DNA of 64,000 nucleotides from Schizosaccharomyces osmophilus. Its lineage: Eukaryota. The notes beneath the pieces were generated by a model, which did no database searches, had not been told where the DNA came from, and saw only the letters and a program-made list of their open reading frames with translations. This document shows positions 5,281 through 6,118 of the stretch, one piece after another. The position numbers and the translations under genes are program-made. The DNA is taken from the NCBI RefSeq assembly GCF_027921745.1, contig NC_079238.1, positions 744,001 through 808,000 on the forward strand. Direction: 5' to 3'. Numbering within the stretch: the first letter of the stretch is position 1; each line of letters opens with the position of its first letter.

Positions 5281-6118
5281 TCAATTCCCACCGCTTTCAA
5301 CATCCCTAGACTGACCCGGTTCCTGGCGTAACCCTGGAGATTGCTCAGTATGTTCAGAGGACGGTTGTTTAAAAGTATCATCACTACGATCGTTGAACTG
5401 GTTTTCAGGCTCTGGTGGCAAGCTGTTTAATGGGATACTATTATCATCCGTCAAGTCGTTTCTATCCGATGACATCCTGAAGCCTAGAGCACTAGTAATC
5501 ACAGAAAAAAACGAGGAAATCCAAGAAAAAACTAGACGAATCAATATAACGATTATATCCACCAACACTAAAAGTACCCCATTAGTAAACATATCAAATT
5601 AAAATTCCACCATTTCACTTACATGAACAAACATATAGAAACATGTAGAAAGCCATGACGACAAGAACAGCTGCTACAGTAGCTTGAAAGTTTACCCCTA
5701 CAGATTCTTTCATCGATTCCTTTATAAAGGGGACAAGGTATTTGTAAGAAAACCAAAAGTTTACTATGACCGAAAGAATAAAGCAAAAACTAAGCCGAGC
5801 AGTTTCATTTTCCTGTCTGCGTTGTGCTTCGGGGATTCTCACAATTTTTGCCGGCCAGAAAATTAACCACAATAATGCCGTCAAGACATTTCGTAAAGAA
5901 ATAGAGAATATATTTCCTCCTGCCATGTTGGTAGACGCTTCTTGATGTCTGTTTTCTGAGTACGGAGGTGCATGACCTTTTTCCAAGTCGTCTAGATGAG
6001 AATTCAAGATTTCATTGTACCGTGGCAGTTCACCGTCAAACGTTGCAAGAGTGCCCAAGCGAGGAACGTCAGCTGAATCAGCATCTTTTAGCTTTTTGTA
6101 TTTGTTTTTTTCAATCAT
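5281..6118 (-). CDS. wtf-associated (wag-like) membrane protein, 2 exons (6118-5623, 5567-5281), 260 aa
   Basis: Two ORF-track fragments join in phase via intron 5622-5568 (GTAAGT..CTAAT..TAG) into a 783-nt frame. Several hydrophobic segments; N-terminal LPRY and DLEKGHAPPYSE. Divergent from the wtf gene inside a 5S pair. Start codon uncertain. Confidence 0.72.

What the first reader, a model, noticed from the sequence alone, without database searches (positions are those of the whole stretch)
5281..6118. The wag-like partner protein carries Wtf-antidote-like motifs
Seen: both proteins start with KNKY (MIEKNKYKKLKD versus MKNKYTPISD). The partner has an LPRY motif and DLEKGHAPPYSE, compared with PPPYS and IDLEM in the wtf protein. 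It then has about four hydrophobic segments and an acidic tail with DDNSIPL...DVES. Its length (260 aa) is nearly the same as the wtf (261 aa) and its single intron is also phase 1. From memory, DLEKG next to a PY motif and an IPL..DVE tail are typical of S. pombe Wtf proteins. Inference: the partner may be a highly diverged wtf relative or a trans-acting antidote/ubiquitin-ligase adaptor, making the cassette a two-component system. To my knowledge wag function is unresolved.
Basis: partly seen in the sequence, partly recalled or inferred. Interest (0 to 1): 0.75.

Follow-up and report, generated by a model that had tools for sequence, protein, structure and literature searches.

The report
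wag: Wtf look-alike that travels alone
This fission-yeast gene sits beside a spore-killer gene and has a similar ubiquitin-tag tail and variable repeat, but shows no detectable sequence kinship to it and has multiplied on its own between 5S rRNA genes in a sister species, so it is more likely a separate, possibly selfish, gene family than the killer's antidote partner.

Summary
The gene is S. osmophilus SOMG_00343, a member of the named but uncharacterised wag family, in a published 5S-wag-wtf-5S cassette. The motifs are in the sequence. A canonical PY motif (LPxY) is kept in 29 of 29 wags with an N-terminus and 4 of 4 divergent relatives. DLEKG is shared with S. pombe Wtfs, not with the neighbouring Wtf clade (0 of 59). 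KNKY and the tight DLEKG-x-APPY spacing are derived, in one 13-copy clade; APPY is not a canonical PY; equal length and intron phase are coincidence. Profile comparisons with Wtf score no better than reversed or shuffled controls, though power is low and S. pombe Wtf could not be aligned. A two-component cassette is unlikely: S. cryophilus has 38 wag loci and 5 wtf, its two wtf-paired wags are fragments, and three chromosome I wags sit alone in 2.0-kb 5S-wag-5S units. New here: a conserved Met65 behind the PY tail, a helix-phased variable repeat like Wtf's, and mosaic paralogues. Best reading (0.38): an independent Wtf-type conflict family gated by Rsp5-family ubiquitination. Close rival (0.35): host trafficking protein amplified by 5S recombination.

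The parts
4816..4934 (+). 5S rRNA gene, left end of the cassette
   Evidence: Rfam RF00001, 99.9 bits; direct repeat with 8849-9001, spacing 4034
5623..6118 (-). wag (SOMG_00343) exon 1, 496 nt, codons 1-165
   Evidence: 100% to P0001; 496-nt exon 1 also in the published wag11 and wag20 models
5568..5622 (-). wag intron, 55 nt, phase 1
   Evidence: GTAAGT..ACTAAT..TAG; 55-nt intron in published wag20; no spliced contig seen here
5281..5567 (-). wag exon 2 with last hydrophobic segment, repeat site, acidic tail and stop
6098..6109 (-). KNKY (res 4-7), part of a derived N-tail; gives a YxxL as YTPI does in Wtf
   Evidence: 13 of 29 wags, one clade
6017..6028 (-). canonical PY motif LPRY (res 31-34)
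   Evidence: LPxY in 29 of 29 wags and 4 of 4 divergent relatives
5975..5989 (-). DLEKG (res 44-48)
   Evidence: [LM]EKG 29 of 29 and 4 of 4; DLEKG in S. pombe Wtfs, 0 of 59 neighbour-clade Wtfs
5960..5971 (-). non-canonical PY-like site APPY (res 50-53)
   Evidence: [AV]PxY 29 of 29, 3 of 4 divergent
5924..5926 (-). in-frame Met65 between the PY tail and the first hydrophobic segment; candidate start of a PY-less short form (untested)
   Evidence: 27 of 29 in this column; context ACCAACATGG
5491..5535 (-). site of the variable amphipathic repeat (4- and 7-residue steps); short in this copy
   Evidence: spacer 11-59 aa across 30 wags; helical phase coherence R 0.82, 0 of 5000 random sets as high
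5428..5448 (-). DDNSIPL in the acidic tail (res 206-212)
   Evidence: IPL in 18 of 29
7010..8131 (+). wtf gene, five exons (7010-7124, 7322-7555, 7601-7843, 7883-7999, 8055-8131), 261 aa; poison start Met48 at 7348
   Evidence: model; hits named 'wtf meiotic driver'; 197-nt intron 1 skipped in a contig of run X1
7250..7260 (+). FLEX-like site GTCAACAAACA in wtf intron 1
   Evidence: 1 mismatch to FLEX; same low-confidence hit listed for S. osmophilus wtfs
8850..8968 (+). 5S rRNA gene, right end of the cassette
   Evidence: Rfam RF00001, 103.6 bits

Best explanation
wag is a separate multi-copy family of membrane proteins with a conserved N-terminal PY motif, found between 5S rRNA genes with or without wtf, that likely works like a Wtf antidote on its own kind rather than on the neighbouring Wtf. 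Shown: conserved LPxY and [LM]EKG, hydrophobic core, variable amphipathic repeat, species-specific clades, mosaic paralogues, wtf-free 5S-wag-5S units. Inferred from Wtf biology: the PY motif recruits Pub1/Pub3, the tail lysines (4, 6, 8, 9, 11, 47) are ubiquitinated and the protein goes from Golgi to endosome and vacuole. Inferred and untested: the core self-assembles, repeat length sets which copies recognise each other, and a form that escapes ubiquitination (start at Met65, or low ligase activity) is toxic, so the family persists as drivers or as suppressors of each other.
For: PY motif 29 of 29 plus 4 of 4 divergent; same definition and role in Wtf, and PY motifs also in the Spk-1 driver family. 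Tail 1-64 is 97-100% identical in 13 S. osmophilus copies while later segments switch nearest neighbour (P0014: 50% in 1-64, 96-100% in 65-165). Between-species identity: median 64% osmophilus-octosporus against 88.9% for ordinary orthologues. Species-specific clades. Repeat after the last hydrophobic segment grows in 4- and 7-residue steps in both families, keeps helical phase (wag R 0.82, P < 1/5000; Wtf R 0.29, P 0.004) and is amphipathic at 98-104 degrees in 3 of 3 wag and 3 of 3 Wtf examples; in Wtf the repeat number sets poison-antidote specificity. S. cryophilus: 38 wag loci against 5 wtf; on chromosome I 19 of 20 lie within 2 kb of a 5S-sized rRNA row (random 4.5%), 13 of 14 gene-sized ones are over 10 kb from a wtf, and wag9, wag10 and wag17 sit alone between tandem 5S genes. 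Met65 in 27 of 29.
Against: No toxicity, drive or isoform data exist in what I could read. Met65 is weak evidence: neighbouring A61 and S62 are as conserved (90%), the copies are not independent, 2 of 29 and the divergent P0100 lack it, and three out-of-frame ATGs precede it. No intron separates tail and core, and the GTAAACA core 37 nt upstream of the ATG is common (25 in the window) and changed at three places in a related contig. wag diverges less than Wtf (64% vs 47% between the two species). An ordinary chaperone, hsp16, is also amplified in 5S repeats of S. cryophilus, so copy number, mosaicism and 5S linkage do not need drive. Four of the 20 chromosome I loci are equal-sized 483-bp fragments in a repeat array, so the 19 of 20 are not independent.
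Confidence: 0.38

Rival explanations
1. wag is a host-side PY-tagged membrane cargo or Rsp5 adaptor (in the manner of Sna3 or the Cos proteins), amplified and homogenised by recombination between 5S genes, with no role in drive.
For: hsp16 precedent in 5S repeats. Conserved loop and core residues even in relatives at 36-45% identity. Slower divergence than Wtf. No intron promoter, no conserved FLEX site found. Sna3 and Cos proteins drive cargo endocytosis in budding yeast (passage; their mechanism is recalled).
Against: No relative outside three species among 1.84 billion representatives (9 hits). Many fragments: 14 of 38 loci under 780 bp in S. cryophilus, 6 of 21 pseudogenes in S. octosporus. 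A freely varying helical repeat in the same place as Wtf's is unexplained.
Confidence: 0.35
2. One reading: wag is a trans-acting antidote or ligase adaptor for the Wtf next to it, so the cassette is a two-component system.
For: Fixed divergent pairing in S. osmophilus and S. octosporus; most wag-linked S. octosporus wtfs form one clade (11 of 14). wag-linked wtfs make little poison transcript: 20 short to 3108 long reads against 203 to 7457; 0 of 14 against 12 of 34 genes with 7 or more short reads, Fisher P 0.01 with a cut-off chosen after seeing the data; rank test P 0.15. The PY motif could supply ubiquitin in trans.
Against: S. cryophilus wags paired with a wtf are 150- and 198-bp fragments, while 22 of 24 gene-sized loci lie over 10 kb from any annotated wtf. 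Wtf antidotes carry their own PPxY (59 of 59) and rescue without wag; non-cognate antidotes did not rescue in 5 tested pairs; physical tethering is not enough. Little poison from the neighbour means little need for an extra antidote.
Confidence: 0.1
3. Ancestry, a separate question that is compatible with the best explanation: wag and wtf descend from one gene and have diverged beyond detection.
For: Same order of features: PY tail, DLE-type motif at residue 44-47, about four hydrophobic segments, 4/7-step amphipathic repeat, acidic tail with an I-x-L motif. DLEKG shared with S. pombe Wtf. Negative searches have low power (16% identity between true Wtfs).
Against: hhalign probability 1.4% and 0.5%; real score 17 against 23 reversed and up to 29 shuffled; HMM cross-scores at most 5 bits, equal to controls; segment tests 1, 22 and 2 of 25 shuffles as high; BLASTP best E 0.16. 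One intron against four, none alignable. The most Wtf-like details are derived in one clade. Short tail motifs of sorting type can converge.
Confidence: 0.25

Closest known systems
wag family (wtf-associated gene; De Carvalho et al. 2022, PMC9562144)
   Same: Member: same 5S-wag-wtf-5S layout, divergent orientation, 496-nt exon 1 and 55-nt intron. Spacing (838-bp gene, 892 bp to the wtf) matches wag15-wtf28 of strain CBS 15792 (correspondence inferred).
   Different: The passages read give no motif, topology or function; a December 2025 preprint still calls the family uncharacterised.
Wtf antidotes of S. octosporus, S. osmophilus, S. cryophilus
   Same: PY motif in an N-tail, internal in-frame Met, about four hydrophobic segments, 4/7-step amphipathic repeat, 5S-linked spread, gene conversion.
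   Different: No detectable homology; two exons not five; no intron promoter; LPxY plus [AV]PxY instead of PPPY; tail about 63 aa with other motifs.
S. pombe Wtf (Pfam PF03303; Cw9a, Wtf4)
   Same: DLEKG, PY motifs in the tail (PY1 at 30-33 in Cw9a; 31-34 here), variable seven-residue repeat near the C-terminus.
Neurospora Spk-1 family
   Same: Transmembrane single-gene driver with a conserved PY motif (passage).
   Different: No sequence link tested; drive shown for Spk-1, not for wag.
S. cerevisiae Sna3 and Cos proteins
   Same: Small membrane proteins tied to ubiquitin sorting; Cos is a multi-copy family (recalled).
   Different: No sequence match in Pfam or the representative search; host function shown for them, none for wag.

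Membership tests
wag | Homology to the wag proteins of S. octosporus, S. osmophilus, S. cryophilus | tested here: met
   30 hits, all three species; several SOCG names are in the paper's wag table
wag | Divergent to a wtf, between it and an upstream 5S gene | tested here: met
Wtf | Detectable homology to Wtf of the S. octosporus clade | tested here: not met
   scores equal controls
Wtf | Homology to S. pombe Wtf / PF03303 | tested here: inconclusive
   no PF03303 among the 25 of 28 families shown for 30 wags, but only 3 of 14 true Wtfs match, best E 0.16; no S. pombe Wtf in the profile search; sequences not obtained
Wtf | Five or six exons, PY tail on its own exon 1 | tested here: not met
   two exons; tail and three hydrophobic segments in exon 1
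Wtf | [LP]PxY motif in the N-terminal tail | tested here: met
   LPxY 29 of 29 and 4 of 4
Wtf | In-frame second start behind the PY motif | tested here: inconclusive
   Met65 27 of 29, but use as a start not shown and conservation not above its neighbours
Wtf | Short meiotic transcript from a FLEX/Mei4 promoter | tested here: inconclusive
   no good FLEX site at wag; only contigs available, which cannot show starts
Wtf | Variable seven-residue repeat before the C-tail | tested here: met
   present as an analogous 4/7-step amphipathic repeat of different sequence
Wtf | Toxic short form, rescue by the cognate long form, drive | not testable with these tools
   needs expression and crosses
Two-component wag-wtf cassette | wag needs a wtf partner | tested here: not met
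   S. cryophilus annotation: 22 of 24 gene-sized wag loci over 10 kb from a wtf
Two-component wag-wtf cassette | Physical binding of wag to Wtf | not tested
Rsp5/Nedd4 PY-motif membrane substrates and adaptors | WW-domain binding and ubiquitination | not testable with these tools
   motif and six tail lysines present; binding needs a pull-down

The most novel reading that the evidence does not exclude
[quoted passage not shown] The 5S-wag-wtf-5S unit would then be two selfish genes sharing one vehicle, by convergence or from a common ancestor.
Probability: 0.2. Interest if true: 0.85.

Novelty: new variant of a known kind. Interest (0 to 1): 0.55.

Why it matters
wag has been named since 2022 and is still uncharacterised. 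The conserved PY motif makes it testable with assays already published for Wtf (PY mutation, DUB tethering, Pub1 pull-down). The wtf-free 5S-wag-5S units recast it from a 'wtf-associated gene' to a family with its own spread. If it drives, it would be a further case of PY-gated poison-antidote duality and would show that 5S repeats carry several selfish families. If it does not, it is a control showing how far 5S recombination alone mimics the signatures of conflict.

Tried and rejected
No whole genome was held, so paralogue DNA, dN/dS and promoter conservation could not be computed. ESM Atlas: only low-scoring unnamed clusters for exon 1, no usable named hit for the full protein. AlphaFold2 models are poor (wag pLDDT 51, pTM 0.22; Wtf 59.8, 0.30); Foldseek against PDB gave 0 matches at E 0.001 for either, so the folds say nothing. 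Complex prediction of wag with Wtf was not available. S. pombe Wtf sequences: not among 68 hits of the Wtf profile; a metagenome motif scan gave 3 loci, none a wtf. Sequencing runs: no RNA holder listed; contigs of X1-X5 cover parts of the cassette, X1 shows spliced wtf joints, none shows a spliced wag. In X3 contig depth is higher over the core (97, 153) than over the tail (14.5); contig depth cannot rank parts of a gene and paralogues collapse, so this was not used. DNA comparison of wag with wtf gave only 10-36 nt chance matches, best E 0.08. The GTAAACA at 6155 was rejected as a poison promoter. Equal length and intron phase were rejected as evidence. Earlier scan findings: none by words, sequence or place. 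Rows dropped: P0030 (partial) from motif counts; P0101, P0104, P0105 (no N-terminus) from the divergent set; 9 of 68 Wtf hits left out of alignment A3 as partial; P0007, P0020, P0030 left out of the identity medians.

Full report
What is there. The window holds a 4034-bp unit between two tandem 5S rRNA genes (4816-4934 and 8850-8968). It contains a two-exon gene on the minus strand (6118-5281, intron 5622-5568, 260 aa) and a five-exon wtf on the plus strand (7010-8131, 261 aa). The minus-strand gene is S. osmophilus SOMG_00343 (P0001). All 30 hits come from S. osmophilus (15), S. octosporus (9) and S. cryophilus (6). A profile search of 1.84 billion representatives gave 9 hits, 7 of them new, all from these three species. 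This is the wag family of De Carvalho et al. 2022, defined there by position and called uncharacterised.

The motifs. With the partial P0030 left out, LP[RK]Y is in 29 of 29 wags and LPxY in 4 of 4 divergent relatives with an N-terminus. This fits the [LP]PxY definition used for Wtf antidotes; the window's background is 2 in 12,604 aa. The second site is [AV]PxY (29 of 29), never PPxY; I found no usable passage on whether such sites bind Rsp5 (one listing, not read). [LM]EKG is invariant. DLEKG occurs 32 times in the published alignment that has 32 S. pombe rows and in 0 of 59 Wtfs of the neighbour's clade, which have DLEM (55 of 59). The closest likeness, KNKY and DLEKG-x-APPY without spacer, is confined to 13 S. 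osmophilus copies that form one nested clade; 16 other wags and all 4 divergent ones have the spacer. It is therefore derived. Equal length and intron phase carry no weight.

Homology to Wtf. None was detected. hhalign gave 1.4% and 0.5%. With a wider wag alignment the local score was 17 against 23 for the reversed Wtf alignment and 14-29 for 30 block shuffles; HMM cross-scores reached 5 bits, as did controls. By segment, 1, 22 and 2 of 25 shuffles matched the real score for tail, core and C-terminal part; the tail match is the PY motif itself. Power is limited: true S. osmophilus Wtfs hit Pfam WTF in only 3 of 14 cases, true Wtfs can share 16% identity, both structure models are poor, and I could not obtain S. 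pombe Wtf sequences. Remote common ancestry stays open at about 0.25.

Is it a partner of the wtf? The authors' own annotation says mostly not. Their S. cryophilus file lists wag1-wag38 (file cut when stored, but the numbering is complete) against 5 wtf loci. The two wags paired with a wtf are 150 and 198 bp. Of 24 loci of 780 bp or more, 22 lie over 10 kb from any annotated wtf (chromosome I by script, 13 of 14; the others read). On chromosome I, 19 of 20 wag loci are within 2 kb of a short rRNA row, against 4.5% for random intervals. These rows are labelled 5.8S in the file; I take them as 5S from their size and because two of them flank wtf1 as the paper's table says. wag9, wag10 and wag17 each sit alone between two tandem 5S genes about 2.0 kb apart, with no room for a wtf. 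Four loci are 483-bp fragments in a repeat array and are not independent. Published experiments point the same way: cognate Wtf pairs work in budding yeast without wag, non-cognate antidotes failed in five pairs, and tethering does not restore rescue. One observation cuts both ways: wag-linked S. octosporus wtfs give few poison-type reads (20 short to 3108 long, against 203 to 7457; rank test P 0.15; 0 of 14 against 12 of 34 with at least 7 reads, P 0.01 at a cut-off chosen afterwards), and they mostly form one clade.

(1) An in-frame Met65 lies behind both PY sites and before the first hydrophobic segment in 27 of 29 copies, with A at -3, where Wtf has its poison start. It is no better conserved than A61 and S62, is absent in P0100, and three out-of-frame ATGs precede it, so a short form would need its own transcript; no convincing FLEX site was found. 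(2) After the last hydrophobic segment the family has a repeat of variable length: 13 distinct spacer lengths from 11 to 59 aa in 30 proteins, in 4- and 7-residue steps, in helical phase (R 0.82, 0 of 5000) and amphipathic near 100 degrees. Wtf has a repeat with the same steps in the same place, and its copy number sets poison-antidote specificity. (3) Paralogues are mosaics, with a nearly uniform PY tail on variable cores, form species-specific clades, and diverge much faster than ordinary orthologues (64% against 88.9%) though slower than Wtf (47%).

How it likely works. The PY motif recruits Pub1/Pub3 and tail ubiquitination sends the protein from Golgi to vacuole (inferred from Wtf; about 0.75). 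The family spreads by 5S recombination without needing wtf (supported by the annotation; about 0.8). What the trafficking is for is open. I give 0.38 to a Wtf-type conflict role acting on its own kind, 0.35 to a host cargo or adaptor that rides the repeats as hsp16 does (the SOG authors note that hsp16 itself has driver-like signatures), and 0.10 to a trans-antidote for the neighbour. The strongest form, an active driver with a Met65 poison, gets 0.2.

Novelty. The family, cassette and gene model are published. I found no text on wag motifs, function or wtf-free units in searches or in the passages read; 'wag' does not occur in the PY-motif paper, and a 2025 preprint calls it uncharacterised. 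The wtf-free loci are in the 2022 source data, so the authors had them.

What I saw of each paper. PMC9562144: 12 of 17 'wag' places, sections 5, 9, 11, 12, first parts of 6 and 14; supplement 42 parts 1, 2, 43; supplement 6 parts 1-3 and searches; searches in 4, 5, 11, 13; no figures. PMC10721834: passages and Discussion. PMC11892871: abstract, sections 7, 10, 11. PMC7591262, PMC6538654, PMC8650575, and preprints 10.64898/2025.12.28.696746, 10.64898/2026.01.24.701316 and 10.1101/2022.12.06.519325: passages only; preprint supplements were not seen and may hold wag orthogroups or synteny. The Cos/Sna3 mechanism, the YxxL reading and the sorting-signal reading of DLE-type motifs are recalled and come from no call.

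Verdict. Observation partly confirmed; interpretation partly supported; the two-component model is unlikely. Interest 0.55, because a conserved PY motif and wtf-independent spread turn an open question into cheap, decisive experiments.

Noticed in passing
window 7883-8131 (wtf exons 4-5): This wtf lacks the glycine-asparagine repeat that most relatives have in exon 4; its exon 4 resembles only P0031 among the 14 aligned.
   Followed up: partly
PMC9562144 Figure 1-source data 5: The authors' S. osmophilus annotation has 'Wag_wtf_sag_unit' and 'Wtf_sag_unit' rows: a third repeated gene ('sag') travels in some 5S units. I did not see it mentioned in the passages read. This window's unit is 4.0 kb, shorter than those units of 4.9-5.7 kb.
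   Followed up: no
P0099, P0100 (S. cryophilus SPOG_01294, SPOG_05031): Divergent full-length wag relatives (45% and 36% to P0001) with PY and LEKG but no expanded repeat; candidates for the ancestral, possibly non-selfish form.
   Followed up: partly
P0011 (SOMG_00285): A wag that a figure legend of the S. osmophilus genome paper lists as a species-specific gene near the telomerase RNA gene ter1, with SPOG_05030 and wtf genes in the same panel.
   Followed up: no
S. cryophilus chromosome I: Pairs of wags about 3.8-4.0 kb apart (wag8/9, 12/13, 15/16) and four 483-bp fragments at 1.41-1.46 Mb in a 3.8-kb period; the latter may be the eroded ORF of the centromeric 5S repeats described in PMC6538654.
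   Followed up: no
window 5167-5220: Short tandem repeat (TAAACA/CAAAAG type) just downstream of the wag stop; relatives carry a longer version.
   Followed up: no
window 11188-11259: tRNA gene 2.2 kb beyond the right 5S gene.
   Followed up: no
wag residues 49-57 in non-osmophilus-clade copies: A CLCL-type cysteine spacer behind EKG in 16 of 29 wags and 4 of 4 divergent ones, lost in this gene's clade; possible palmitoylation site (speculation).
   Followed up: no
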